Source of the DNA: an uncultured Planctomycetales bacterium
GTDB taxonomy: Bacteria; Omnitrophota; Gorgyraeia; Zapsychrales; Fredricksoniimonadaceae
Direction of reading: 5' to 3'
DNA length: 64,000 bases
Assembly: GCA_964520655.1 (NCBI GenBank)
Contig: CAZFNI010000006.1
Location: 78,790 to 142,789 of the forward strand
The notes under the pieces: model-generated
Told to the model about the DNA's origin: nothing
Seen by the model: the letters and a program-made list of their open reading frames with translations, nothing else
The model's database searches: none
Program-made: the position numbers and the translations under genes
In this document: positions 30,516 through 47,700 of the stretch, piece after piece
Position numbering within the stretch: the first letter of the stretch is position 1
Layout: each line of letters begins with the position of its first letter

Positions 30516-31718
30516 ATGTTTAATTCAATTCCAGAGGTTTTAGAAGAGTTAAAAGCCGGCCGCATGGTCATTGTCATGGATGATGAAGGGCGCGAGAATG
30601 AAGGGGATATTTTAGTGTCCGCCCAGTTTATAACGCCTGAGATCATCAATTTCATGGCCACCAATGCCCGCGGGCTGATCTGTGTGCCGATGGAAGATGC
30701 CCGTTTATCGGCATTAGACCTGCATCCCATGAAGGAAGACAATAATTCCAAGCATCAGAAATGCAACACCGCCTGGACGGTGTCTGTGGATGCGGCTTAT
30801 GGAGTAACGACCGGTATTTCCGCGGCTGACCGCGCTAAAACGGTTGAAGTCTTGATGGATGAAAAATCCAAACCCTCTGACCTGGTGACCCCTGGCCATT
30901 TATTCCCGTTACGCGCCCGACGCGGCGGCGTTCTGGTCCGTGCTGGTCATACAGAAGCTTCTGTCGACCTGATGCGTTTGGCTGGGCTTTATCCTGCCGG
31001 TGTCATCTGTGAGATCATGAATGATGACGGCACCATGGCGCGCACCAATGACCTGATCGCTTTTGCCAAGAAACATAAATTAAAGATCTGCACGATCGAC
31101 AGTTTGATCGAATACCGCCGTAAGTCTGAAAAGTTGGTGGAGCGGGTGGAAGAAACCACCTTGCCGACCCAGGAAGGCGAATTCAAGTTAGTTGCATATA
31201 AATCCATCATTGATGATGTGATCCATTTGGCGTTGGTCAAGGGACAGATCGATGCGACGACTCCTGTTTTGGTACGCGCGCAATCCGAATGTTTGACCGG
31301 CGATATTTTTGGTTCCCTGCGCTGTGATTGCAACAGCCAGTTGAAAGCGGCGATGAAAATGATCGAGAGCGCTGGTTCAGGGGTCATTTTGTATATCCGT
31401 CAACATGAAGGACGCGGCATTGGTTTGCTCAATAAATTAAAAGCGTACAATTTGCAGGATGAGGGCATGGACACCGTGGAAGCTAATCAGGCGCTGGGTT
31501 TCCCGGCGGATTTGCGCGATTACGGCATCGGCGCGCAGATCTTAGTTGATCTGGGGGTCAAGCAGATCCGTTTGTTGACCAATAATCCTCGCAAGATTGT
31601 TGGCTTAGAGGGGTATGGACTTTCCGTCGTTGAGCGCGTGGCCATTAAAGGCGCCCATCATCCCCGGACAGAACAATATTTGAAGACCAAGAAGGAAAAA
31701 TTAGGACATATCCTTTAA
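30516..31718 (+). CDS. ribBA: Bifunctional 3,4-dihydroxy-2-butanone-4-phosphate synthase / GTP cyclohydrolase II
   Basis: DHBP synthase N-half ([15 protein letters not shown]). GTP cyclohydrolase II C-half with zinc cysteines (CLTGD...CDC) and [14 protein letters not shown]. Confidence 0.93.
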
Positions 31719-32152
31719 TGAACGCGCGCATTGCCATTGTCGCCAGCGAGTTCAATGAATTCATCAGCAAGGCTTTGCTTGCTGCATGTTTAAAAGAGTT
31801 AAAAAAGAGCGGGATCCCCGACAAAGCCATTACCACTGTCTGGGTTCCCGGTTCTTTTGAAGTTCCGCTGGCAGCATTAAAATTAGCCAAAAAGAAGAAT
31901 GTTGACGCGGTTATTTGTTTAGGCGCAGTGATCCGCGGCGAAACGTATCATTTTGAAGTTGTGGCCAATGGTGTTGCACAGGGGATCATGCAGGCATCTC
32001 TACAGTCATCAAAGCCTGTGATCATGGGAGTGCTAACCACAGACACCATCTCTCAAGCCCAGGCGCGCGCGCAAGCAAACGGCAAAGACAATAAAGGCCG
32101 CGACGCGGCAAAGACGGCGTTGGCCATGACCGCTCTTTTAAAGAGAATATAG
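31718..32152 (+). CDS. ribH: 6,7-dimethyl-8-ribityllumazine synthase
   Basis: RIAIVASEFNEFIS...VWVPGSFEVPLAA...GAVIRGETYHFEVVA family motifs. Confidence 0.92.
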   Translation: MNARIAIVASEFNEFISKALLAACLKELKKSGIPDKAITTVWVPGSFEVPLAALKLAKKKNVDAVICLGAVIRGETYHFEVVANGVAQGIMQASLQSSKPVIMGVLTTDTISQAQARAQANGKDNKGRDAAKTALAMTALLKRI

Positions 32153-32161
32153 CAGGATCAT

Positions 32162-32593
32162 ATGAGACGACGCACACTTGGACGCGAACACGCGCTAAAG
32201 ATCTTATACCAGCTGGACATCACCCAAAGGCCTCTGGAGGCGATCTTAGTTGATTACTGGAAAGCCGATGATACCAAAGATGTGAAGGATGATGTTGTCA
32301 TTGAATTCGCCGCCTCGCTCTCCAAAGGCGTCGTCCAGCATCTGAAAGCCATCGATGATAAGATCTCCGAATACGCCACGAACTGGCAGTTGAAACGCAT
32401 GGCGGTCATTGACCGCAATTCCATGCGCATCGGCCTGTATGAATTGAAATATTCTACAGAGACGCCTCCCAAGGTTGCCATCAACGAAGCGGTCGAGCTT
32501 GCCAAGAAATACGGCGACCTCGAATCAAGTAAATTCGTCAACGGCATCTTAGACAAGATCCACAAAAAAGAGATCGTCGAGCCGAGCAATTGA
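32162..32593 (+). CDS. nusB: Transcription antitermination factor NusB
   Basis: [18 protein letters not shown] and the NusB fold. Conserved ribH-nusB linkage. Confidence 0.9.
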
Positions 32594-32594
32594 T

Positions 32595-33431
32595 ATGCGG
32601 CTGGCGGACCTGCACATCCACACATATTATTCCGACAGTACTGCTTCACCGCAAGAGGTCGTGGACGAAGCGCTAAAAGCGGGATTAGCGGCGATCGCCA
32701 TTTCCGACCATGATATTATAGACGGTGTTCTGCCGACGCAGGAAGCGGCGAAAGGCAAAGACCTGGAGATCATTTCCGGCATTGAATTGTCCGCGGAATA
32801 TGAAGGTAAGGATATCCATATGCTCGGGTATTTCATCGACGTCCATAAAGGGCCGTTGGTCGAGAAATGCCAGGTTTTCTTAAACGCGCGGGTTGAACGC
32901 ATGAAACAGATGATCATGAATCTGCGGGCGGTCGGCATCACCAATATTGATTTTGATGAAGTGGCGGCGTTGACGAAAGCTAAAGCGGTAGGCCGGGCGC
33001 ATTTGTCGTTCCTGATGGTGCAGAAAGGTATTGTCAAGAACGCCAAAGAAGCGTTTGAGAAATATCTCAGTGAAGGCTGTCCGGGATATGCGCCAAAATA
33101 TAAGCAAAGCCCATTTGAGGCGATCGATCTGATCCATCAAAGCGGAGGCTTAGCGGTGATGGCGCATCCGATGCTGACGCAGAAAGATGAGCTGATCGCG
33201 CCGATGGCCAAAGCGGGTTTAGATGGGTTGGAAATTTATTACCCTAATTGTTCGGATGCCGTGCATAATTTCTATTATGGGCTGGCTAAAAAGAACAAGC
33301 TGCTGATGACCGGCGGATCTGACGCGCACGGCAAAGCCAAACCCTATACCTATATCGGTAAAGCAACGATCGATTACGCGTTAGTTGAGAAAATGAAAGA
33401 ACGTGTGGCAGAGCGTTTGTCGCAGACATGA
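32595..33431 (+). CDS. PHP-domain phosphoesterase (TrpH/YciV-like)
   Basis: DLHIHTYYSD...ISDHD...GGSDAHG metal-binding motifs of the PHP family. Confidence 0.8.
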   Translation: MRLADLHIHTYYSDSTASPQEVVDEALKAGLAAIAISDHDIIDGVLPTQEAAKGKDLEIISGIELSAEYEGKDIHMLGYFIDVHKGPLVEKCQVFLNARVERMKQMIMNLRAVGITNIDFDEVAALTKAKAVGRAHLSFLMVQKGIVKNAKEAFEKYLSEGCPGYAPKYKQSPFEAIDLIHQSGGLAVMAHPMLTQKDELIAPMAKAGLDGLEIYYPNCSDAVHNFYYGLAKKNKLLMTGGSDAHGKAKPYTYIGKATIDYALVEKMKERVAERLSQT

Positions 33432-33433
33432 GT

Positions 33434-33606
33434 TATAGAGCTGGGGCAAGCTTCATTCAGGATTCAACCCCCCTAGCCCCCGTAACACATGCACGGGTTT
33501 TGTAAACAACGGTGGTTGCTTAACGAAAATCTAGTGGGTACGTATTCAATAGGGCCGCATGTGACGGGGGAGTTTCATCCTTCATGAACTTCCCCCAGCT
33601 CTATAA
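33434..33606 (+). repeat. ~170 bp imperfect-palindromic intergenic repeat, copy 1. Nested inverted repeats: outer TTATAGAGCTGGGG..AAGCTTCAT / ATGAACTTCCCCCAGCTCTATAA; inner CCCCCGTAACACATGCAC / GCATGTGACGGGGG.
   Basis: Directly visible nested inverted repeats. Copy 2 at 34685-34841 matches the reverse complement of this copy at ~85% over the arms. Confidence 0.7.
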
Positions 33607-33629
33607 CGGCATATAATGAGGTAACCGTT

Positions 33630-34691
33630 TTGTCAGAACATTTGAAATATATGTCTCAGGCCTACGAGCTGGCCCTGCGAGGATGGGGGCGGGTCAGCCC
33701 TAATCCCATGGTCGGGGCTGTGCTTGTTAAGTCGGGCAAGGTGATCGCCAGGGGGTTTCACGCCTATTATGGCGGTCCTCATGCCGAAGCAGCGGCGATC
33801 AAAACCGCTGGGGCGAAGGCCAAAGGCGCGCATTTGTATGTCACACTTGAGCCATGTTCGCATTTCGGCAAGACCCCACCTTGTACACAGGCGATCATTG
33901 ATGCTGGTATTACAAAAGTTTTTGTCGGTGTCAAAGACCCTAACCCGTGCATGAATGGCAAGTCCATCACGCTGTTAAAGAAAGCGGGGATCAACGTCGA
34001 GGTTGGCTTCCTTGAAGATGAGCTGTTGCGATTAAATGAAAGTTTCAACAAGCATGTGAAAAGCGGTATGCCGTTTGTGACTGCGAAGATCGCCCAGACG
34101 CTTGACGGGAAGATCGCTAATTCAAATGGTGATTCCAAATGGATCACAGGTCAGGACGCCCGTGATTACGCGCATGAATTAAGGTTCGGATTTGACGCCA
34201 TTATCGTCGGCATCAATACGGTCTTAAAAGACGACCCAGCCTTAAACAGTGTTCCCCGCAAATCCATCAAGAAGGTCATCCTGGATACGCATTTGCAAAT
34301 GCCTTCCAAGGGTCGGATTTACACACAAACACCGCCGGAAGATATTCTGATCTTTACAACTTCAAAAAAGATCAAGAAGCTTAATGCGACGATCATTCAA
34401 GCGCCTTTGAAAAATAACAAGGTAGACCTTAAATGGGTGCTGCGCTATTTAGGCCGGATAGGCGTTGCCAATCTGTTGATCGAGGGTGGCGCCAAGGTCA
34501 TCGGTAATGCTTTAAATGAAAAGCTGGTCGATAAAATGATGGTCTATGTCGCGCCTAAGATCATGGGCGACGGGATCAATGCAATCGCTGGCATGACAAC
34601 AAAAGATATTAGCAAGATATTAACGCTAAAAGATGTACAAATGGGCAGGATAGGCGAGGATCTTTTTATCGAGGCGCCAATTAAGGGGTAG
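33630..34691 (+). CDS. ribD: Bifunctional diaminohydroxyphosphoribosylaminopyrimidine deaminase / 5-amino-6-(5-phosphoribosylamino)uracil reductase
   Basis: Deaminase zinc motifs (HAE...PCSHFGKTPPC) and a reductase C-domain. TTG start at 33630 with GAGG 9 nt upstream. The alternative ATG at 33651 gives MSQAYELAL. Confidence 0.9.
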   Translation: MSEHLKYMSQAYELALRGWGRVSPNPMVGAVLVKSGKVIARGFHAYYGGPHAEAAAIKTAGAKAKGAHLYVTLEPCSHFGKTPPCTQAIIDAGITKVFVGVKDPNPCMNGKSITLLKKAGINVEVGFLEDELLRLNESFNKHVKSGMPFVTAKIAQTLDGKIANSNGDSKWITGQDARDYAHELRFGFDAIIVGINTVLKDDPALNSVPRKSIKKVILDTHLQMPSKGRIYTQTPPEDILIFTTSKKIKKLNATIIQAPLKNNKVDLKWVLRYLGRIGVANLLIEGGAKVIGNALNEKLVDKMMVYVAPKIMGDGINAIAGMTTKDISKILTLKDVQMGRIGEDLFIEAPIKG

Positions 34692-34841
34692 GATAAGTTC
34701 GTGAGGGGCGAAACCACCCCCGTCACATGCCACCCTAAACGAAACCAACAAACACATCAAATAAACCGTTCGCGAAACGAATTTGTGCATGTGTTACGGG
34801 GGATGGGGGGTGTTGAGCCCCGAACGAAGCTTATCCTACCC
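34685..34841 (-). repeat. ~160 bp imperfect-palindromic intergenic repeat, copy 2, inverted relative to copy 1. Overlaps the ribD stop codon and sits upstream of ribE.
   Basis: Outer inverted repeat GGGGTAGGATAAGTTCGTGAGGGGC / GCCCCGAACGAAGCTTATCCTACCCC. Inner CCCCCGTCACATGCC / GCATGTGTTACGGGGG. Its reverse complement aligns with copy 1 (AAGCTTC.TTC.GG..TCAAC.CCCCC.A.CCCCCGTAACACATGCAC). Confidence 0.7.
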
Positions 34842-34879
34842 CTTAATCCATGCTAGATATTAATAAATGGAGAGCACAT

Positions 34880-35461
34880 ATGTTTACCGGCATTATTGAA
34901 CAATTAGGCAAAGTCAGATCAATTGAAGCGAAAAAGAATTTGATCGTTTATGAGGTCGATTGCGGAAAATTAGCCAAGCAGATCAAGGTGGGGGACAGCG
35001 TGGCGATCAACGGCGTATGCCTGACGGTGACAAGAAAGAAAGGCAATGCCGTTTCTTTTGACCTGATGCGCGAGACGATCGAAAAAACTTCGCTTAAACA
35101 GATCAAGGCCGGCAGCGGTGTCAATATGGAGTTGGCATTAAGGGCTAACGGTCGTTTGGGCGGGCACTTTGTCACCGGACATGTTGATGAGGTCGGTGTC
35201 ATCACCTCCATTGAGCGTGAACCCAACTGGGTCGCTATGACCGTTGCCGTTTCCAAAGAAGCCATCAGGCACTTGGTCCATAAAGGTTCAGTAGCCTTAG
35301 ACGGGATAAGCTTGACCGTCGGCAAGGTCACCAAGAAGGACTTTTGCGTGTATTTGATCCCGTACACGCTCGAGGTTACCAACCTCTCGGCCAAGAAAAA
35401 AGGCGATCTGCTCAATATCGAAACGGATATCCTTGCTAAATATATTCTTAATAAAGAATAG
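34880..35461 (+). CDS. ribE: Riboflavin synthase (alpha subunit)
   Basis: MFTGIIEQLGKV, the internal duplicated half (GHFVTGHVD) and the classic N-terminus. The start was chosen at the MFTGII methionine. Confidence 0.9.
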   Translation: MFTGIIEQLGKVRSIEAKKNLIVYEVDCGKLAKQIKVGDSVAINGVCLTVTRKKGNAVSFDLMRETIEKTSLKQIKAGSGVNMELALRANGRLGGHFVTGHVDEVGVITSIEREPNWVAMTVAVSKEAIRHLVHKGSVALDGISLTVGKVTKKDFCVYLIPYTLEVTNLSAKKKGDLLNIETDILAKYILNKE

Positions 35462-35543: not shown

Positions 35544-37274
35544 TTGAGGTGGTTTATGACTACTGCTCCTGCCCCACACACATCCAAACACCATATTCTT
35601 CGAGGGATCCCTATTGTCCACGGCTTTGCCATTGGGCATCTGGTTTGCTGCCATAATGCGTTAGCCCGTGAATATCAACAGCGCGTACTGTCTGAGGATG
35701 AGGTGGAGCATGAGATCAAGAGGATACGTGTCGCTGTCGATAAAGTCTGCGATGAGCTGGCGATGCTTAAATCCAAGGTCATCAGCCAGATCGATGCCAA
35801 ACACGCCGAGATCTTTGAGGCTCACCGTCAGATCGTGACCGATGTCGAGCTGTTCCAGGAGATGGAAAAACATTTACGGACGCGTCTGCTTAATGCCGAG
35901 CGCATCGTCCAGGATGTTTTCTTAGGGTGGGAGAATAAGTTACGGGCCTCCCAGAGCGTGATGATCCATGATAAGGCCGATGACATTGTCGATGTGGGGC
36001 GGCGTTTGCTTGAGATATTAAGCGGAGCTGTCTCTCAGGAAATGCCGGCAACGCTGCCGCCGGATTCTGTCTTGTATGCCAAATGCCTTTTGCCTTCTGA
36101 TGTGGTCAAGCTGGATGTGGATAACATTAACGCCATCATTACCCAGGAAGGCACGCAGAATTCCCATTCAGCTATCCTGGCCCGCGCGTTGGATATTCCC
36201 TTTGTCGCCAATATCAATCTTCGGAGTAAATTCATTGTCCCCGGGGCGCCGGTCGTTGTCGACGGTAAGAATGGGAAGATCATTATTGATCCCAAACCGG
36301 TAGAGGTGGAAGCTTACGCCCAGTTGATCCGTCAGCGCGATGAATACAGGGTCGATGTATTGCGATATATCAAAAACCTGCCGCTGACGATCAAGGGGGA
36401 TTTCATTAAGGTTCGGGCCAATGCCTCTTGCCTGGCGGACCTTAAGATGGCGAAAAAGTTTGGCGCGGACGGGATCGGGCTTTACCGGACAGAATTGTTC
36501 TATATGGAGCGCACAGATATCCCGACAGAGGAGGTATTTTACACCCAGCTTAGGACCGCATTAAAGCATGTCGCGCACGATGAGATCATCATGCGCCTGC
36601 TTGATATCGGGGGGGATAAAACACTCTCGTTTTGGAATGTTGATGAGGCGCCAAACCCTGCCTTGGGGCTTAACGGCATTCGGCTGCTTCTAAAATACCC
36701 GAAGCTGCTTCAGATGCAGCTGCGGGTATTTTTGCGATTAAGCGCGGAATTCAAGATCAAGGTACTGGTGCCAATGGTGTCTTTGCCTAAAGACATGGTG
36801 GAGGTCAGGCGGTATTTGCAGGAGGAAAAGGCAAAGCTCGATCATGAAGGAGGACTATACAATGAGCATTTGGAACTGGGGGCGATGATCGAGACCCCGG
36901 CGGCGGTATTGTCGATCGATGAGTTGATCGGTGTTTCAGATTTTTTTAATGTCGGGACCAATGATTTGGTGCAGTATATCATGGCGGCGGGACGGGGACG
37001 CGCGGATGTTGCGGACTACTACGAGGCCGGCAATCATTTGGTCCTGGATACGTTAAAGAACATTCTCCACACCTGCAGGGCTCACGGCCGGGAGTGCTGC
37101 GTGTGTGGAGAATTGGCGGGGGATTTAAATTACACCAAAGATCTGCTGGATATCGGCTTAAGGAATTTTAGCGTCCAGCCGGCGCTGATCCCGTATGTCA
37201 AAAGTAAGGTCCTGTCTTTGTCCGCCTGCGAAGCAGACCCTTCCGCAGCAAAGAAAGATAAAGTGATCGCCTGA
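35544..37274 (+). CDS. ptsI: Phosphoenolpyruvate--protein phosphotransferase (PTS enzyme I family)
   Basis: Phosphohistidine domain (GTQNSHSAILARALDIPFV) and a C-terminal PEP-utilising TIM barrel (ETPAA..., GTNDLVQY). 576 aa. No HPr or EII genes adjacent. Confidence 0.8.
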   Translation: MRWFMTTAPAPHTSKHHILRGIPIVHGFAIGHLVCCHNALAREYQQRVLSEDEVEHEIKRIRVAVDKVCDELAMLKSKVISQIDAKHAEIFEAHRQIVTDVELFQEMEKHLRTRLLNAERIVQDVFLGWENKLRASQSVMIHDKADDIVDVGRRLLEILSGAVSQEMPATLPPDSVLYAKCLLPSDVVKLDVDNINAIITQEGTQNSHSAILARALDIPFVANINLRSKFIVPGAPVVVDGKNGKIIIDPKPVEVEAYAQLIRQRDEYRVDVLRYIKNLPLTIKGDFIKVRANASCLADLKMAKKFGADGIGLYRTELFYMERTDIPTEEVFYTQLRTALKHVAHDEIIMRLLDIGGDKTLSFWNVDEAPNPALGLNGIRLLLKYPKLLQMQLRVFLRLSAEFKIKVLVPMVSLPKDMVEVRRYLQEEKAKLDHEGGLYNEHLELGAMIETPAAVLSIDELIGVSDFFNVGTNDLVQYIMAAGRGRADVADYYEAGNHLVLDTLKNILHTCRAHGRECCVCGELAGDLNYTKDLLDIGLRNFSVQPALIPYVKSKVLSLSACEADPSAAKKDKVIA

Positions 37275-37316
37275 TTCCTGCTATAATATCTTTCCATTCA
37301 TTGTTAAGGGGCATAT

Positions 37317-37496
37317 ATGTGGGACTGTAAACATAGAAATACCAAAGACGATTCCTGCCGCCGGAGAAAGGCCAAATGTTATCCAGGCGGGGTGGCGTGC
37401 GTATTAAAAGACAAGTTTGAATTCCCGCTGCGCAAAGAAGATGACCCCTTGCTTAAACGCAAAAAGAGCAAATCTTCAAGTTCCAAGACCCGTTGA
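37317..37496 (+). CDS. Possible small basic Cys-containing protein (59 aa). Below the ORF-track length cutoff.
   Basis: ATG preceded by AAGGGG 6-7 nt upstream. MWDCKHRNTKDDSCRRRKAKCYPGGVAC... has four Cys in 28 residues and a Lys/Ser-rich tail. No homology could be judged. Confidence 0.3.
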   Translation: MWDCKHRNTKDDSCRRRKAKCYPGGVACVLKDKFEFPLRKEDDPLLKRKKSKSSSSKTR

Positions 37497-37556
37497 CCAT
37501 ATTGATTGACGATGTCAGGTTCGGATGTTAAGATAACCCCTTATTTGCTCATTTTT

Positions 37557-40179
<2,623 letters not shown>

Positions 40180-40196
<17 letters not shown>

Positions 40197-41070
40197 GGAA
40201 TTTATCACATACATCAGTGTTGAGCGCGGACTGGCGAAAAATACGCTGCTGGCATACCGCCGGGACCTGAATAAATATGCCACGGTTCTCCATAAAGCGG
40301 GGGTTGCATTGCCTGAAGGTATTAGGCGGGAGCATATCAGCGGGTACATGTTCGCATTGAAAAAAGAAGGATTAACGACGGCCAGTATTTGTCGGAATCT
40401 GGCGGCGATCAAGATGTTCCATCGTTTTTTGGTTCGGGAGAATTTATCCAAGGAAGACCCGACAACTCTGGTGGAAACACCCCGGCAGTGGAAAAAGGTG
40501 CCGGAGGTGCTGACGCAAAGGGAAGTGGATGCGCTGTTGCTTGTCATTGCCAATGCCCAGGGGCCCCAGGCCAAGCGTGATCTGGCCATTATGGAATTGC
40601 TTTACGCGTCGGGGTTGAGAGTTTCTGAGATCGTGGACCTAAAGATCGGAAGCGTTGAGCCCCAGGTTGGATTTGTCCGGGCGGTCGGCAAAGGCAGTAA
40701 AGAACGCATTATTCCTGTCGGCGCGAAAGCTCTGGAGACTCTGATGGTATATTTACAGAAAGCCCGGCCGAAATTGGTCAAAGGCAAAGAAAGTGATGCC
40801 TTATTCGTCAGCCGATTGGGCAAGAAGTTAAGCCGGGTCAGCGTCTGGAATATGATCAAATCATACGCAAGGCTTTGCGGGATCAAAAAGAACATTAAAC
40901 CCCACACGCTGCGTCATACATTCGCGACGCATCTGCTGGAGCACGGGGCGGATCTGCGCAGCGTCCAGGAAATGCTGGGGCATGCGGATATATCGACGAC
41001 CCAGATCTATACCCATGTGGATAAAGAACGTTTAAAGAGCGTGCATAAGGAATTTCATCCCAGGTCATGA
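40180..41070 (+). CDS. xerD: Tyrosine recombinase XerD/XerC family
   Basis: N-terminal SAM-like domain (FITYISVERGLAKNTLLAYRRDL). Catalytic R..H..R..Y region (HTLRHTFATHLLEHGADLRSVQEMLGHADISTTQIYTH). Confidence 0.85.
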
Positions 41071-43109: not shown

Positions 43110-43786
43110 GAACATTAACGGAAAAGCAGGGTGTATTGATCATCAATAAACCAGCGGGCAAAACCTCGCATGATGTGGTGGCCATGGTGCGCCGTATCTT
43201 AGGCCAGCGCCGCGTTGGTCACGCGGGGACACTGGATCCTTTAGCAACGGGTGTGCTGGTCGTTCTGGCGGGAAAGTCGACCAAGATGTTCGATAAATTC
43301 GTGGCCTATGATAAGGGTTACCGTGCGACACTAAAGCTGGGGCTTAAAACAACGTCGGCGGATACGATGGGAGAAACGATCGAACAGAAGTCGTTCGCTC
43401 ATGTGACAAGGATGGATGTGGAAAAAGCTTTTGCTAAATTCACTGGAGAGATCGAGCAATTGCCGCCCATGGTCTCGGCGGTGCGCCATAAAGGCGAACG
43501 GTTATATAAGATCGCCAGGACCGGTCAGCAGGTGGAGCGTACTGTGCGCAATGTGCGCATCGACGAGTTGACCATCTTGCGTTTTGAGCCCCCTGAGGTG
43601 GAATTCTACATGGCTTGTTCGAAAGGTACCTATGTTCGTCAGTTGGCAGACGATGTGGGTGACCTGTTAGGCTGCGGCGCATGCATATGCCAGATCGAGC
43701 GTACCAAGGTTGGTCCATTTGAGATCACCCAGGCGAAGAATATTGAGGATGTCAATGAAAGTCATCTTATTGACTTCAAAGGTTAA
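43106..43786 (+). CDS. truB: tRNA pseudouridine(55) synthase TruB
   Basis: GHAGTLDPLATGVL catalytic Asp motif. Conserved rbfA-(nrnA)-truB-ribF neighbourhood. Confidence 0.9.
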   Translation: MRTLTEKQGVLIINKPAGKTSHDVVAMVRRILGQRRVGHAGTLDPLATGVLVVLAGKSTKMFDKFVAYDKGYRATLKLGLKTTSADTMGETIEQKSFAHVTRMDVEKAFAKFTGEIEQLPPMVSAVRHKGERLYKIARTGQQVERTVRNVRIDELTILRFEPPEVEFYMACSKGTYVRQLADDVGDLLGCGACICQIERTKVGPFEITQAKNIEDVNESHLIDFKG

Positions 43787-44699
43787 ATTAAAGGATACCG
43801 CGGCGGCTATAGGTATTTTTGACGGGGTGCACCGGGGGCATCGTTATTTGCTCGGAAAAATGCTGGCTAAGGCCAGAACCCACCGTTATACGTCCGCGGT
43901 CATCACATTTTTCCCGCACCCTGCCCATGTCCTGCGTCCCGACCTGCAGCTGAAATATTTAACCACTATGGCTCAGCGTATGTGTTTGCTTGAGGAGCTT
44001 GGGGTGGACATTTGTCTGGTTGTTCGTTTTACAAAGACTTTTGCGCATGTGAAACCGGAGTCTTTCATTAAGAATGTCCTGGTCCGTCAGCTGGGCGTCA
44101 AAGAGTTATTTGTCGGCGATGATTTTCGTTTCGGCCGGGAACGCGCCGGTGATGTGGGGTTATTTCGATCGCTGTCTAAAGAATGTGGTTACAGTATGCA
44201 TGGGGTCAAGGCATTAAAAAATGGGGGGAAGCCAGTGAGCAGTACCCGCATTCGGCGGATGGTCGTGCAAGGTGATCTCTTAAGTGCAAAAAAATTATTG
44301 GGCCGGGACTTTAGCTGCGAAGGTAAGGTTGTTAAAGGCGACGGCCGCGGCAAGACCCTTGGTTTTCCGACAGCCAATATTGATTATCAGAACGGGATCA
44401 TGCCTCCCAACGGGGTTTATGCGGTTGTTGTTGCACATAAACGTAAATTCTACAAAGGCGTGGCCAATTTGGGGTTTCGTCCTTCTTTTGAAACAGCATC
44501 TCCAAAACCGCTTTTGGAAGTGCATTGCTTTGACCTGCATCAAGATATCTACGGGGATTTGATCGAAGTTTCTTTTATCAGGAAGATCCGAGACGAGCGC
44601 TCTTTCCCCTCAGTAGAAATGCTCACCCAACAGATCAACAGGGATGCCGTCAAGGCGCGTGGCATTCTACGATCCCATAGGGTATACTTGTCCCGGTAG
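43755..44699 (+). CDS. ribF: Bifunctional riboflavin kinase / FMN adenylyltransferase
   Basis: N-terminal FAD synthetase motifs (GIFDGVHRGH). C-terminal riboflavin kinase (GRGKTLGFPTANI...E). Confidence 0.9.
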   Translation: MKVILLTSKVKLKDTAAAIGIFDGVHRGHRYLLGKMLAKARTHRYTSAVITFFPHPAHVLRPDLQLKYLTTMAQRMCLLEELGVDICLVVRFTKTFAHVKPESFIKNVLVRQLGVKELFVGDDFRFGRERAGDVGLFRSLSKECGYSMHGVKALKNGGKPVSSTRIRRMVVQGDLLSAKKLLGRDFSCEGKVVKGDGRGKTLGFPTANIDYQNGIMPPNGVYAVVVAHKRKFYKGVANLGFRPSFETASPKPLLEVHCFDLHQDIYGDLIEVSFIRKIRDERSFPSVEMLTQQINRDAVKARGILRSHRVYLSR

Positions 44700-44724
44700 T
44701 ATATATACTACCTTTCGGGAAAAT

Positions 44725-47700
44725 ATGATGTTATTGCGGCCCATTATCCATTTTAGCGTTATTCTTTCTTTGCTCGTCACATCCGTGATGCCTTTGTCCA
44801 GGGCATCGGCGGCGCCTTTGTCTGATCTTCCTAAAGCCGGCACAATGGTTGCTTTAAGTCAAGCCTATCAACCTGCGATCATCCGGGGCATCACCGTCCA
44901 TCCAGATGATCCGTTTATCTTCGATTTTATTGTGGATGCCGGGCAGGACAAGCTGCAGGGCGAGGCATTGAATATGGAAGGGGATAAGCTGGTCAAATAT
45001 TTCCTGGCGGCCCTTGCGGTGCCAGAGAAGGAATTGTGGGTCAACTTAAGTCCTTATGAACAAGAACGCGTTATTCCTGAAGGGTTGGGGCAAACCGATA
45101 TGGGACGCGATCTTTTGGCGCAGGATTATATTTTAAAGCAATTGACCGCATCATTGATCTATCCGGAAAAGGAACTGGGCAAGAATTTCTGGGACAAGGT
45201 TTACAGTCAGATGCAAGCTAAATACGGCAAGAGCGTCAATGTTCCGGTAAATACTTTTAATAAAGTCTGGATCATGGCGGATCAGGCTGAGGTGTTTGAG
45301 CGTGCTCAGACGGCCATGGTGACCAAGAGTCACTTGAAGGTCATGCTGGAGGAGGATTATTTAGCGATGAATAGAAATGCGGCGGGTGGCGCTGAAGTTG
45401 GTGCTTTTGCCCGCAGCGACAGGGGGTCAATGGCTTTATTCCCAGCTACCCCACGGGGGGATGGGTGGCGCGAGGACAAAAGCACCAATTCAGCGACAGG
45501 ACCCGCTCTTGCTAGCCAGGTCATAAAGGAAATCATCCTTCCTGAACTCGAACGTGAAGTGAACACGGGAAAGAATTTCGCGCCGCTGCGTCAGATATTT
45601 CATTCCATCATCCTGGCTGGTTGGTACAAGAATAATTTGAAGGAGGCGTTGCTCAATCAGGTCTATTCAGATCAGAACAAAGTGCGCGGTATTGATCTTG
45701 ATGATAAAACAGTCAAACAGCAAATTTATGAACAATATTTGAAGGCGTATAAAAAAGGCGTGTTCAATTTTATCAAGGATGACATGGTCGAGGGACGCAT
45801 GGTTCCCCGGAAATATTTCTCCGGCGGGGTCGATGCCGCGATGGCCCTTCATCCCAAAAGAACAACGGACAGTGCCATGCTCATCACCGGCCTTGCTGGT
45901 GCTTTGCTTCAGGCGATCACGGTTAGATTAAAAAGGAATGATGTGAAGAAAGAGAAAAAGACCGCCCCTAGCGAACAATTCCGAGTGATCATCAGCAAGT
46001 TGATCAACAATATACAGGGTCCGGATAAGTGGGTCATGCGTCCTTTGTATAACCGTTGGGAAGTAGGGGTGACAGTTGAGGGCTGGCCAAGAACCGTTGA
46101 TGGAAAGAGTACGGCCAGTGCCGAGGACTCCAGGATGCTGTTGGATATTTCTCGGGAGTTTCAACAGGTTTTTCCTGATGCTGTATTTGCTGTGGGGGCA
46201 CAGAATTGGAATCTGCGGATCGTTTATATCGTTAAGACAGAGGCAGAAGCTTTTAGGGTGAAAAACATGCTTAACAGTTCTTCAGTCACTTCAGATATGG
46301 TCCAGTTGCTGGAGAGCTATCTGAAAGAAGGAAAAGCGGCTCCTAGGTCTGGCGAGGCCGCAAAGGAACGTAAGTCCGACGCCGCGATGCAAAGCCTCCC
46401 CAAGGAATATGTGCTTAGGGTGAAGCGTTTGGAGAAATATGAAGCACATACGACCTCTCAGGCGATGATTGATCAATTAATGCGGGATAAGGAACGTCTG
46501 GAATCTACAGAGAAATATATGACAGGACAAATGGAAAGAGGATTTGCTTACGATTTTCAAAAGAAGGAAGCCCAAGCCCGTCTAGAGAGGGTGCAGAAGG
46601 ATTTGATCATTATAAAAAAAGCGTTAGAGGTGTGGGAAGAAATACGACTTGCCCAGATCCCTCATTTAAGCCGCAGGGATATAGTGAATGCTTTTGTTAG
46701 GGATTTTGGTTTGGATTATGGCGTTGGAGGAGAAGAGGAGGCTTATGACTATTCGTTAAAAAGGGATGAATCGATCCTGCCTTTTCTAAAGTTCCTAAAG
46801 AGTAAACAAGGTGCGAATATTCCTTTGGTGGTCATCAATCAACCCGACGGCCAAATTGTGGACCCGGGCATTCAAGAAATGATGGGTTTTGGGATCGATG
46901 CGAAAGAAGCATTAAGGATCTTAGCTGTTTATCTTGATCCGCGCGCTGCCTCTGTTGTGGAGGCCGTATTGAACATGACCATTGAATTGTCAGGGGCATT
47001 AAGCGAAAAGGGTATCCATGCTGCGGATGAGATAGCAATTTATATCATCAATCAAATGGGGTTAGACGGCGGAGACGCTATTACAGATAGTGCCATGCTG
47101 GGAGAGCTTATCCGTGATTATTATCCTTTGCCGAGAAGCACACTTCATCCTCTAAAGATGATGGATCAGCTAAAAGCACGATTAAACAGCCGGACAGACC
47201 GCGAGTGGGTCGCGGTTTCTGACAGCGAAGACGTGCTGCGCCGCGTGCGTTGGGACGTGCATTTTTCTTTAGATGGTCAGGATCATACATTGAATGGTTT
47301 TCTGGCAACGCTTGGACTGCCAAGTGAATTCCATCAAAATCTTGAGCGCGACGGAGGTGCGTCGGTGATCATCTATGATGTAAATACACGCGCCTTGACC
47401 GGTCGCGTTCACCGCGCTTTGACCGCGTTGGCCAGGGAATTAAGAGCTGACCAAAAATTCAACCACCGTTATAGCATTAAGTTGACGCCCAATAAGGATC
47501 AACAGTACTTCCCGGGAACGCTGCATACAGCTAGAATCGCTTTTTCCGTCAGGGAGAATGAACCCAGGGCTGAAAAGTATTATGATTCAACGAACTGGAT
47601 GGTGCGGCTGCGGGCATTGTCGACAAATGAATTACAGGGGTTGCTGGCTCAGGAAGAGCGTATTGTTCGAGAAGTCAAGAATGGGGTCAGTGATTCCGCG

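What the first reader, a model, noticed from the sequence alone, without database searches (positions are those of the whole stretch)
33434..34841. ribD bracketed by two inverted copies of a ~160 bp nested-palindromic repeat
The ribD-flanking intergenic regions each contain an imperfect palindrome with an outer stem (e.g. TTATAGAGCTGGGGcAAGCTTCAT ... ATGAACTTCCCCCAGCTCTATAA) and an inner stem (CCCCCGTAACACATGCAC ... GCATGTGACGGGGG). Copy 2 (34685-34841) is the reverse complement of copy 1 (33434-33606) at roughly 85% identity over the arm regions. The two arms of each copy are distinguishable: one carries GTAACACATGCAC, the other GTCACATGC. Orientation is therefore unambiguous, and the copies form a long inverted-repeat pair around the 1.06 kb ribD gene. 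Copy 2 overlaps the ribD stop codon, and copy 1 contains ribD's likely -10 (ATATAAT) and RBS. No other copy occurs in the window. This could be an ERIC/MITE-like mobile repeat, a pair of structured RNA elements, or recombination substrates that could invert ribD. Each alternative has regulatory consequences for riboflavin synthesis.
Basis: seen in the sequence. Interest (0 to 1): 0.6.

Follow-up and report, generated by a model that had tools for sequence, protein, structure and literature searches.

The report
Mobile hairpin repeats flanking ribD
Two diverged copies of a previously undescribed ~175-bp hairpin-forming mobile repeat were inserted on either side of the riboflavin gene ribD in an uncultured bacterium; this looks like a new family of a familiar kind of small bacterial "junk" repeat, not a switch that flips the gene.

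Summary
E1 (33432-33607, + orientation) and E2 (hairpin 34680-34847, inserted block 34675-34855, reverse orientation) are homologous, and each folds into one long hairpin.

They share an invariant asymmetric core, CCCCCGTAACACATGCAC ... GCATGTGACGGGGG, with an AA bulge. The outer stems differ in sequence but still pair.

I found eight distinct copies in five genomic contexts: the PHP-ribD spacer, the ribD end, the hisB-hisH spacer and two other loci. They come from Omnitrophota and Planctomycetales MAGs and from metagenomes. Across them, 93% of stem positions pair and 19 of 43 pairs show double-sided changes.

Syntenic relatives have empty sites at both ribD positions and at the his site. One relative carries only E1 and another only an intact E2. 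Removing E2 restores the conserved RibD C-terminus IEGY*. The copies are therefore independent insertions, not a ribD cassette.

There is no match in Rfam, E. coli genomes (so not ERIC), YPAL, plasmids or phages, and no transposase in the 64 kb window.

Best reading: a new family of MITE-like palindromic intergenic repeats (ERIC/YPAL/Correia-like), co-transcribed inside operons, where it would form long mRNA hairpins. Inversion of ribD is not supported. The mechanism of mobility, the genome-wide copy number and any host function remain unknown.

The parts
33432..33607 (+). E1: 176-nt hairpin element (subfamily A), model strand is +. It starts directly after the PHP-gene stop codon and ends 22 nt before the ribD TTG start.
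   Evidence: Inverted arms. RNA fold -73.9 kcal/mol, z -5.2. CM hit 178.7 bits. Identical copy in related assembly L012.
33432..33463 (+). E1 5' outer-stem arm, pairing with 33576-33607. The sequence is variable between copies but pairing is kept.
   Evidence: 18 of 29 outer-helix pairs show double-sided changes across copies.
33464..33476 (+). E1 conserved C-rich 5' internal loop, TCAACCCCCCTAG. It is unpaired and longer than its 3' counterpart AGTTTC.
   Evidence: Alignments A3 and A4.
33477..33494 (+). E1 5' core arm, CCCCCGTAACACATGCAC. It contains the AA bulge and is nearly invariant in all copies.
   Evidence: 13 of 14 core pairs never vary.
33495..33556 (+). E1 apical region: variable and non-palindromic.
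   Evidence: 38-78% identity between copies..
33557..33570 (+). E1 3' core arm, GCATGTGACGGGGG.
33428..33435 (+). Left copy of the direct repeat flanking E1, ATGAGTTA. It includes the PHP stop codon TGA (33429-33431).
   Evidence: The homologous 12-nt repeat GGCGTGAGTTAA / GGCGTGAATTTAA flanks the copy at the same site in L016. The empty site in L014 carries GCGTGAGTTAA once.
33616..33623 (+). Right copy of the direct repeat, ATGAGGTA. It now supplies the ribD GAGG ribosome-binding site and lies in the 3' tail that starts CGGCAT at 33608.
33630..34691 (+). ribD (TTG start), 353 aa. Its last residues (APIKG*) are encoded by E2.
   Evidence: Pfam dCMP_cyt_deam_1 + RibD_C..
34675..34855 (-). E2: 181-nt inserted block (subfamily B), model strand is -. 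It comprises the hairpin 34680-34847 plus short non-palindromic tails. On the model strand these are 5' TAGCATGGA and 3' TTGGCG.
   Evidence: Alignment with four relatives places the insertion between ...ATCGAGG and GATATTAA. CM hit 173.2 bits. Fold -80 kcal/mol, z -7.2 to -7.8.
34785..34802 (-). E2 5' core arm, CCCCCGTAACACATGCAC.
34717..34730 (-). E2 3' core arm, GCATGTGACGGGGG.
34856..34863 (+). Displaced original end of ribD (GA TAT TAA). Joined to ...ATC GAG G at 34674, it reads IEGY*, the C-terminus conserved in relatives.
32595..33431 (+). PHP-domain gene upstream of E1. It belongs to the conserved ribBA-ribH-nusB-PHP-ribD-ribE gene row.
34881..35461 (+). ribE (riboflavin synthase, MFTGIIE...) downstream of E2.
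   Evidence: Lum_binding.

Best explanation
E1 and E2 are two diverged members (subfamilies A and B) of a previously undescribed family of small, non-coding, hairpin-shaped mobile repeats. The family is MITE-like and closest in architecture to YPAL/RU-2, ERIC and Correia elements. It occurs in uncultured PVC-group bacteria (Omnitrophota and Planctomycetales MAGs).

Each unit is about 165-180 bp and has these parts:
- a long, variable, but always-paired outer stem;
- a conserved asymmetric internal loop;
- a nearly invariant 14-bp core helix with an AA bulge;
- a variable apical region;
- short non-palindromic tails.

Shown: the units were inserted separately into intercistronic spacers or gene ends of housekeeping operons. 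E1 sits between the PHP gene and ribD. E2 sits in the last codons of ribD and rewrote its C-terminus from IEGY* to IEAPIKG*. The bracketing of ribD is therefore a by-product of two insertions at neighbouring permissive sites, not a functional cassette.

Inferred: E2 may be a local copy of the ancestral copy at the E1 site.

Inferred: because both copies lie inside a co-directional gene row with no promoter-like or terminator-like sites around them, they are transcribed as part of the mRNA. There they would form double-stranded stems of about 36 + 14 bp. As shown experimentally for Correia and ERIC elements, such stems are substrates for RNase III or RNase E and can change the relative stability of the flanking cistrons.

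Inferred: the invariant core is the recognition site for whatever machinery moves or maintains the element.
For: 1. Homology and structure. Five, then eight, distinct copies share the core while the stems covary. 93% of cells are paired against 37-48% in slid controls. 19 of 43 pairs carry double-sided changes, and 0 of 500 shuffles reach the observed covariation score.

2. Insertion polymorphism at three sites.
- PHP-ribD spacer: filled in the window, L012 and L016; decayed in L013; empty in L014, L017 and L018.
- ribD end: filled in the window, L012 and L013; empty in L014, L015, L016, L017 and L018.
- hisB-hisH: filled in L003 and L022; empty in L019, L020 and L021.

3. Removing 34675-34855 restores the conserved RibD end IEGY*.

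4. The loci are unrelated (rib, his, downstream of an FGGY kinase, upstream of a DCC1-like gene). The taxa differ. Both orientations occur, always between co-directional genes.

5. Flanking direct repeats occur at several copies: 12, 8, 6 and 5 nt.

6. The stems are pure Watson-Crick. There are 4 G.U and 4 A.C among 344 cells, with no strand bias, as expected for a DNA palindrome that must work in either orientation.

7. There is no Rfam family and no promoter or terminator.

8. There is no transposase, RAYT, reverse transcriptase or integron integrase in the 64 kb window, which is consistent with a non-autonomous element.

9. Published behaviour of the analogues. Bacterial MITEs are under 200 bp, carry terminal inverted repeats and target duplications, and give transcripts with long stem-loops. 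YPAL is 168 bp, not AT-rich, and has internal inverted repeats and target duplications of 3-26 bp. Correia hairpins are cut by RNase III. ERIC modulates decay by RNase E (PMC2229807, PMC10969869).
Against: - Copy number looks low. There are two copies in 64 kb. The exact 18-mer occurs in only 2 of about 185,000 species-representative genomes, once in each. The metagenome scan added one more distinct locus. This is atypical for MITEs, although MAG assemblies lose repeats and the core can vary (L016, L022).
- No autonomous partner with matching ends was found.
- Flanking duplications are inconsistent: 12 nt at one site, 1 nt at most at E2 and none at L003.
- The termini are the least conserved part and an internal core the most conserved. 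This is the reverse of a classical transposase-bound terminal inverted repeat.
- The E2 orthologues (window against L013) are 97% identical outside the apical loop, while 4-fold degenerate sites of ribD differ at 47%. That points to purifying selection or concerted evolution rather than neutral junk.
- RNA processing at the hairpins is inferred only from analogy.
Confidence: 0.62

Rival explanations
1. The element is above all a host-selected structured RNA or DNA signal. Examples would be an intercistronic processing or stability element, or a protein-binding hairpin. On this view it spread once by mobility or horizontal transfer and is now kept by purifying selection. The core helix, the AA bulge and the C-rich loop would be the binding site of a conserved host protein.
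For: The core and both internal loops are nearly invariant across phyla. E2 outside its apical loop is 116/120 identical between the window and L013, although 4-fold sites of the adjacent ribD differ at 47% and the flanking spacer is about 70% identical. A compensatory A-U to U-A swap occurs inside the core in L016. The conserved asymmetries have not been erased although the stems stay perfectly paired. All copies sit in transcribed intercistronic positions.
Against: The constraint is the same in copies of opposite orientation relative to transcription (E1 sense, E2 antisense), so a single RNA strand cannot be the selected molecule. There is no G.U enrichment on either strand. The copy at the E1 site has decayed in L013. 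Close relatives do without the element at all three sites. Copies at one site in related genomes belong to different subfamilies or are mosaics, which fits turnover or gene conversion rather than stable function.
Confidence: 0.2
2. E2 is not a transposition product but a local inverted segmental duplication of the ancestral (subfamily B) copy at the E1 site. It would have been copied together with a few flanking host nucleotides and pasted 1.06 kb downstream. That would explain why the two copies bracket ribD.
For: On the model strand, E2 carries tails (5' TAGCATGGA, 3' TTGGCG) that resemble the sequences flanking the hairpin at the E1 site (GGCGTGAG ... CGGCG in L016). E2 is closer to the L016 copy at the E1 site (75%) than to the window's own E1 (61%). 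Two of very few copies lie 1.3 kb apart.
Against: The his-locus copies in other genomes carry the same kind of tails (GCATGAC ... CGGCA). The tails are therefore more simply part of the element. The similarity of the tails is short (5-7 nt).
Confidence: 0.12
3. E1 and E2 are the inverted repeats of an invertible or mobilisable ribD cassette. This could be a recombinational switch, or a composite transposon that carries ribD.
For: The two copies are in inverted orientation around a single gene. A tyrosine recombinase gene lies 5 kb downstream at 40180-41070.
Against: The longest exact shared run is 18 nt and overall identity is 61%. ribD has the same orientation in the window, L012 and L013. 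L016 has only E1, and L013 has an intact E2 with only a decayed E1. The ribBA-ribH-nusB-PHP-ribD-ribE order is conserved in L014, which lacks both elements. The recombinase is in conserved synteny in L014 as well, so it is a housekeeping Xer-type gene. Inversion would place ribD antisense to its operon.
Confidence: 0.02

Closest known systems
YPAL / RU-2 (Yersinia palindromic sequences, ~168 bp)
   Same: Nearly the same size and not AT-rich. Forms a long stable hairpin. The most conserved inverted repeats are internal rather than terminal. No obligatory TA ends. Target duplications of variable length. Intergenic, with filled/empty polymorphism, and can extend the 3' end of a neighbouring ORF (PMC2229807, PMC2759123).
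   Different: No sequence similarity. Different phyla. YPAL has about 60 copies per genome, whereas the copy number here appears low. This element has an invariant asymmetric core shared across phyla.
ERIC / IRU (enterobacterial repetitive intergenic consensus, 127 bp)
   Same: An imperfect palindrome in transcribed intergenic regions, found in either orientation, with no known transposase and conserved across genera. It affects mRNA decay in an orientation-dependent way.
   Different: No match in 5,426 E. coli genomes, which all carry ERIC. This element is longer, its flanks are not consistently TA, and its hosts are different.
Correia / NEMIS elements of Neisseria
   Same: A hairpin-forming MITE that is co-transcribed with neighbouring genes. 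Its terminal-repeat stems are RNase III substrates. This is the model for the inferred RNA-level effect (PMC10969869, PMC2649163).
   Different: Correia elements have conserved 24-26-bp terminal repeats, TA duplication, IHF sites and hundreds of copies. None of this is shown here. Sequence similarity was not tested.
REPINs (inverted REP doublets mobilised by RAYT)
   Same: Two conserved inverted sequence blocks are separated by a variable spacer and fold as one hairpin. Correlated changes between the two arms are taken as evidence that the hairpin is the evolving unit (PMC3116915, listed; my own knowledge of its content).
   Different: The core arms are not themselves REP-like palindromes. No RAYT (Y1 transposase) gene lies in the window. 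Long additional outer stems are present.

Membership tests
Bacterial MITE-like repeat (generic) | Small (under about 300 bp) and non-coding | tested here: met
   Units are 162-181 bp. Six-frame translations of the copies share no conserved reading frame.
Bacterial MITE-like repeat (generic) | Terminal inverted repeats or a long stem-loop | tested here: met
Bacterial MITE-like repeat (generic) | Filled and empty orthologous sites (evidence of insertion) | tested here: met
   Three sites.
Bacterial MITE-like repeat (generic) | Target-site duplication of constant length | tested here: inconclusive
   Flanking direct repeats are 12, 8, 6 and 5 nt, 1 nt at most at E2, and absent at L003. TA/TTAA at the stem ends is itself palindromic and covaries.
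Bacterial MITE-like repeat (generic) | Many copies per genome | not testable with these tools
   Two copies in the 64 kb window. Collection scans found one exact-core copy per hit genome. Whole genomes could not be searched with the model.
Bacterial MITE-like repeat (generic) | An autonomous IS with the same ends | not testable with these tools
   None in the window or the fetched loci. No IS library was available.
ERIC | Sequence homology to the ERIC consensus | tested here: not met
   No blastn match (word 11, E <= 0.1) in 5,426 complete E. coli genomes.
YPAL / RU-2 | Sequence homology to the 168-nt Y. pestis RU-2 | tested here: not met
   Only 7-12-nt chance matches, with E >= 0.45. The RU-2 sequence was taken from PMC2759123.
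Any Rfam RNA family (including FMN riboswitch, 6S, ribozymes) | Covariance-model match | tested here: not met
   At gathering thresholds the only hit in the window is a tRNA. At E <= 10 across 33300-35000 there is one chance hit of 15.9 bits.
Integron attC site | 5' RYYYAAC ... GTTRRRY 3' box order, same orientation in an array, intI nearby | tested here: not met
   The ends read GTTA...TAAC, the opposite order, on both strands. The copies are inverted. There is no integron integrase; the only recombinase is a syntenic Xer-type gene.
Invertible DNA segment | Both orientations observed, and a dedicated recombinase | tested here: not met
   The orientation is the same in the window and in two related genomes, L012 and L013. 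Exact identity between the copies is 18 nt at most.
REPIN / REP-RAYT | REP palindromes with a GTAG/CGTC tag, and a RAYT gene in the genome | tested here: inconclusive
   No Y1 transposase among the window ORFs that were scanned or listed. The core arms are not self-palindromic. The rest of the genome was not available.

The most novel reading that the evidence does not exclude
The element is not a classical transposase-driven MITE. It would be a new class of polar, hairpin-shaped mobile element. Its invariant, bulged core helix would be recognised in folded form (single-stranded DNA or RNA) by an unknown enzyme. It would insert with little or no target duplication next to stop codons inside operons. 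It would then be held under purifying selection in Omnitrophota and Planctomycetota as an intercistronic processing signal.
Probability: 0.15. Interest if true: 0.65.

Novelty: new member of a known kind. Interest (0 to 1): 0.4.

Why it matters
The finding adds a structurally well-supported repeat family, with a ready covariance model, for candidate phyla in which mobile elements and non-coding features are almost uncharted.

It gives a clean natural example of such an element rewriting the C-terminus of an essential biosynthetic enzyme and splitting tightly coupled cistrons (hisB/hisH, ribD/ribE).

It also warns annotators and assemblers. Three short-read contigs start or end inside copies (L001, L013, L022), which may mean the element breaks assemblies, and the element generates spurious ORFs.

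If the slow evolution of the core and loops reflects host-level selection, the family would be a tractable case of a mobile hairpin domesticated as an mRNA signal.

Tried and rejected
- Rfam, at gathering thresholds and at E <= 10: nothing.
- blastn of E1 against plasmids, phages and E. coli genomes: only chance 45-nt hits in Rhizobium plasmids, otherwise none.
- Viral contig scans. Six hits to a 16-mer of the core were all chance, because none matched the covariance model. A gapped two-arm pattern gave zero hits.
- The metagenome scan with the gapped core gave only one new distinct locus (L004 and L005 are the same sequence).
- A search for solo ends or further copies in the window and in all loci found none.
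- TA or TTAA target duplication was my first model. I dropped it as the general rule. The E2 boundaries restore IEGY* only if short tails belong to the insert. In addition, the "duplicated" TTAA changes in a palindromic way rather than as a direct repeat in E1 and L003.
- I considered a peptide-coding reading. An ATG sits in the core and ORFs of 33-54 aa exist, but the frames are not conserved between copies.
- Searching the E2 pseudo-ORF against 1.84 billion proteins gave one hit, P0242. It carries the translated core motifs ETSPVTC ... PVHVLRGLGGVE and so marks one more copy somewhere. Its DNA could not be fetched because the look-ups were exhausted.
- Promoter and terminator roles: no consensus sites.
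- The taxonomic identity of the window's organism could not be established (one search gave no names). It is inferred only loosely from the Omnitrophota affiliation of L003 and of the HisH homologues.
Full report
**1. Checking the observation**

The region contains two long imperfect palindromes. E1 has outer arms 33432-33450 and 33589-33607 (95% complementary). E2 has outer arms 34680-34697 and 34830-34847 (100%). Two further inverted matches link the inner arms of E1 to those of E2.

E1 aligns along its whole length with the reverse complement of E2, but only spuriously with E2 on the same strand. The shared 18-mer CCCCCGTAACACATGCAC occurs exactly twice in the 64 kb window, where 0.02 occurrences are expected. 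Each element folds into one long hairpin on either strand, at -74 to -84 kcal/mol and z -5.2 to -7.9 against dinucleotide shuffles.

The 5' core arm carries two extra A's, which form an AA bulge in the core helix.

**2. Gene context**

All genes here are on the + strand. The order is:
- ribBA (30516-31718)
- ribH (31718-32152)
- nusB (32162-32593)
- a PHP-domain gene (32595-33431)
- E1
- ribD (TTG at 33630, to 34691)
- E2
- ribE (ATG at 34881, to 35461)
- a PtsI-like gene, then a tRNA and ligA

The E1 hairpin starts at the base after the PHP stop codon. It ends 22 nt before the ribD start. The ATATAAT and the GAGG ribosome-binding site lie in that 22-nt flank, not in the palindrome. The 5' arm of E2 contains the last three codons and the stop codon of ribD. 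No sigma-70-like promoter and no intrinsic terminator is predicted in or next to either element. Both elements should therefore be transcribed within a polycistronic mRNA.

**3. Relatives of the element**

Rfam has nothing, even at E <= 10.

A scan of one genome per species (GTDB) for the 18-mer gave two hits. Both are full-length homologues rather than chance matches:
- One is in a Planctomycetales MAG (L002). It overlaps the stop codon of an FGGY-kinase gene.
- One is in an Omnitrophota MAG (L003). It lies between hisB and hisH.

A gapped two-arm pattern found one more distinct locus in metagenomes (L004, identical to L005), between two co-directional genes. Viral contigs, plasmids, phages and E. 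coli genomes gave nothing real.

A covariance model built from five copies (R1) found no third copy in the window.

**4. Structure and covariation**

RNAalifold on five copies predicts 43 pairs, 18 of them with compensatory changes.

The model-based alignment holds nine copies, eight of them distinct. On it, 93.0% of cells form standard pairs, against 37-48% when the 3' partners are slid by 1-3 columns. Nineteen of 43 pairs carry double-sided changes. None of 500 column shuffles reaches the observed covariation score.

The architecture, from outside to inside, is:
- an outer helix of about 29 pairs with small internal mismatches; it is variable but paired;
- an asymmetric internal loop, with 5' UCAAC(A)CCCCCC(A/U)(G/U) opposite 3' (A/U)NGUUUC;
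- a 7 + 7-bp core helix interrupted by the AA bulge, in which 13 of 14 pairs never vary and one shows an A-U to U-A swap in L016;
- a non-palindromic apical region of 54-63 nt, which is poorly conserved.

The stems are almost purely Watson-Crick. Among 344 cells there are 4 G.U (at the outermost columns) and 4 A.C, with no bias to either strand. This is what a DNA palindrome, or an element that must fold in either orientation, would show. It is unlike a typical one-strand RNA.

**5. Evidence that the copies are insertions**

RibD homologues and their contigs give a small natural experiment.

| Locus | RibD identity to the window | E1 site | E2 site |
|---|---|---|---|
| L012 (GCA_041910255.1; 97-99.7% nucleotide identity) | 99% | filled | filled |
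| L013 | 82% | degenerate copy with deletions | intact |
| L016 | 77% | intact | empty; ribD stop abuts ribE ATG |
| L014 (same ribBA-ribH-nusB-PHP-ribD-ribE order) | 72% | empty | empty |
| L015 | 72% | not covered (contig starts 49 nt before ribD) | empty |
| L017, L018 | 68% | empty | empty |

The alignment of the ribD 3' ends places the window and L013 insertion between ...ATC GAG G and GA TAT TAA. Removing 34675-34855 yields ...IEGY*, which is the conserved C-terminus of the relatives (IEGYI*, IEGYLQ*, MEGYL*, VEGYI*). E2 therefore changed RibD from ...IEGY* to ...IEAPIKG*.

The his locus shows the same pattern independently. L003 is filled. L022 is also filled, and its contig starts inside the element. 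In L019, L020 and L021 (HisH 86-87% identical) the hisB stop codon touches or overlaps the hisH start codon.

**6. Boundaries and duplications**

At the E1 site, L016 has a 12-nt direct repeat, GGCGTGAGTTAA / GGCGTGAATTTAA. The window has an 8-nt remnant, ATGAGTTA / ATGAGGTA. The empty site in L014 carries GCGTGAGTTAA once. L004 has a 6-nt repeat and L002 a 5-nt repeat. E2 has 1 nt at most and L003 has none.

Copies at the ribD end and the his site also carry short non-palindromic tails on the model strand: 5' GCATGA-N and 3' (C/TT)GGC-R. These tails resemble the repeat at the E1 site. I could not decide between three readings:
- The tails are the true ends of the element.
- The element prefers a GCRTGA-N-TTAA target.
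- E2 was copied locally from the E1 locus.

A simple TA or TTAA duplication, which was my first model, does not fit E2.

**7. Evolution of the copies**

Two subfamilies are visible:
- Subfamily A: E1 of the window and L012, L003, and part of L022.
- Subfamily B: E2 of the window, L012 and L013, and the E1-site copies of L016 and L013.

At the same site, related genomes carry different subfamilies or mosaics. The 3' arm of L022 is identical over 22 nt to the window's E1, not to L003. This suggests turnover or gene conversion among copies.

Between the window and L013, 47% of the 4-fold degenerate sites of ribD differ. E2 outside its apical loop is nevertheless 116/120 identical, and the apical loop is 78% identical. 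So the stems, the loops and the core evolve far more slowly than neutral sites. Either they are under purifying selection, or they are being homogenised against a conserved active consensus. The decayed E1-site copy in L013 shows that retention is not universal.

**8. What it is**

Taken together, E1 and E2 are members of a new family of small, non-coding, hairpin-shaped insertional repeats. The closest described kinds are the enterobacterial and neisserial MITE-like repeats.

YPAL/RU-2 matches best in architecture. It is 168 bp, not AT-rich, has internal inverted repeats and no TA ends, shows target duplications of 3-26 bp, and can extend neighbouring ORFs (PMC2229807, PMC2759123). There is, however, no sequence similarity to YPAL and none to anything in E. 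coli genomes, which rules out ERIC.

No transposase, RAYT, reverse transcriptase or integron integrase is encoded in the window. The only recombinase is a Xer-type gene that is syntenic in relatives lacking the element.

**9. How it probably works (inferred)**

As DNA, the element was inserted by an unknown trans-acting machinery. The invariant bulged core is the obvious recognition site. The conserved AA bulge and loop asymmetry make sense only in a folded (hairpin) form, because the two arms would otherwise be unequal duplex sites.

As RNA, both copies would fold within the rib operon transcript into stems of about 36 + 14 bp. By analogy with Correia elements (RNase III cleavage at the terminal-repeat stems) and ERIC (orientation-dependent RNase E decay), they could uncouple the stabilities of the upstream genes, ribD and ribE (PMC10969869). 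None of this was testable here.

**10. What it is not**

- It is not a riboswitch. No FMN riboswitch or other Rfam family matches, and the same element sits in his and other operons.
- It is not an attC site. The box order and the orientation are wrong.
- It is not an invertible or transposable ribD cassette. The copies share 18 nt of exact identity at most. Orientation is constant in the window and two related genomes. E1 and E2 have separate histories. The gene order is conserved without them.

**11. Limits**

- Whole genomes could not be searched with the model, so copy number per genome, the true termini and any autonomous partner remain open.
- Exact-pattern scans underestimate the family, because the core varies in L016 and L022.
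- One further copy is implied by a spurious ORF, P0242, which carries the translated core motifs.
- The taxon of the window's organism is not established.

Noticed in passing
window 32595-33431 (also L014 9144-9980): A PHP-domain (histidinol-phosphatase-like) gene is conserved inside the riboflavin gene row ribBA-ribH-nusB-PHP-ribD-ribE in several relatives. It could be the pathway's poorly known pyrimidine-phosphate phosphatase.
   Followed up: no
window 44644-50163: A 1839-aa ORF with no Pfam domain at E <= 1e-5. It sits between ribF (FAD synthetase/riboflavin kinase, 43710-44699) and the mraW-ftsI-mur cell-wall gene cluster.
   Followed up: partly
window 35544-37630, compared with L013 and L014: The region downstream of ribE is variable between relatives. 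The window has a PtsI-like PEP-utilising enzyme plus a tRNA. L013 has an AAA_14/DUF4143 ATPase, an HTH protein and CsgG. L014 has only a 540-nt gap before ligA.
   Followed up: no
window 36692-36732 and 37062-37113: Two abutting palindromes (20-nt arms at 90% and 26-nt arms at 81%) lie inside the 3' part of the PtsI-like coding region.
   Followed up: no
L001 end, L013 start, L022 start: Three short-read (Logan) contigs start or end inside a copy of the element. This suggests that it breaks assemblies, through repeat or strain variation, and so is under-represented in MAGs.
   Followed up: partly
L013 1-130: At the E1 site this relative has a degenerate, AT-shifted copy with two internal deletions. 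It still ends with GAACTTGCCCTGCCCCTGTAAC. This looks like a decaying element next to an intact E2.
   Followed up: yes
L022 1-143 compared with window 33571-33592: The his-locus copy of L022 is a mosaic. Its 3' inner arm (GAGTTTCATCCTTCATGAACTT) is identical to the window's E1, while its outer arm resembles L003. Its core has a double, non-compensating change (CAAATGC / GCATATG).
   Followed up: partly
window 1-64000: Rfam at gathering thresholds finds only one tRNA in 64 kb. There is no FMN riboswitch before either rib gene block. GC skew is positive throughout and nearly all genes are on the + strand.
   Followed up: no
L022 1491-1587: The hisA-hisF spacer of this relative holds two short GC-rich hairpins (CCCCGAAGGTTTAAATCGGGG and CCTCCGATAAACACATTCGGAGG) that are unrelated to the element studied.
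   Followed up: no
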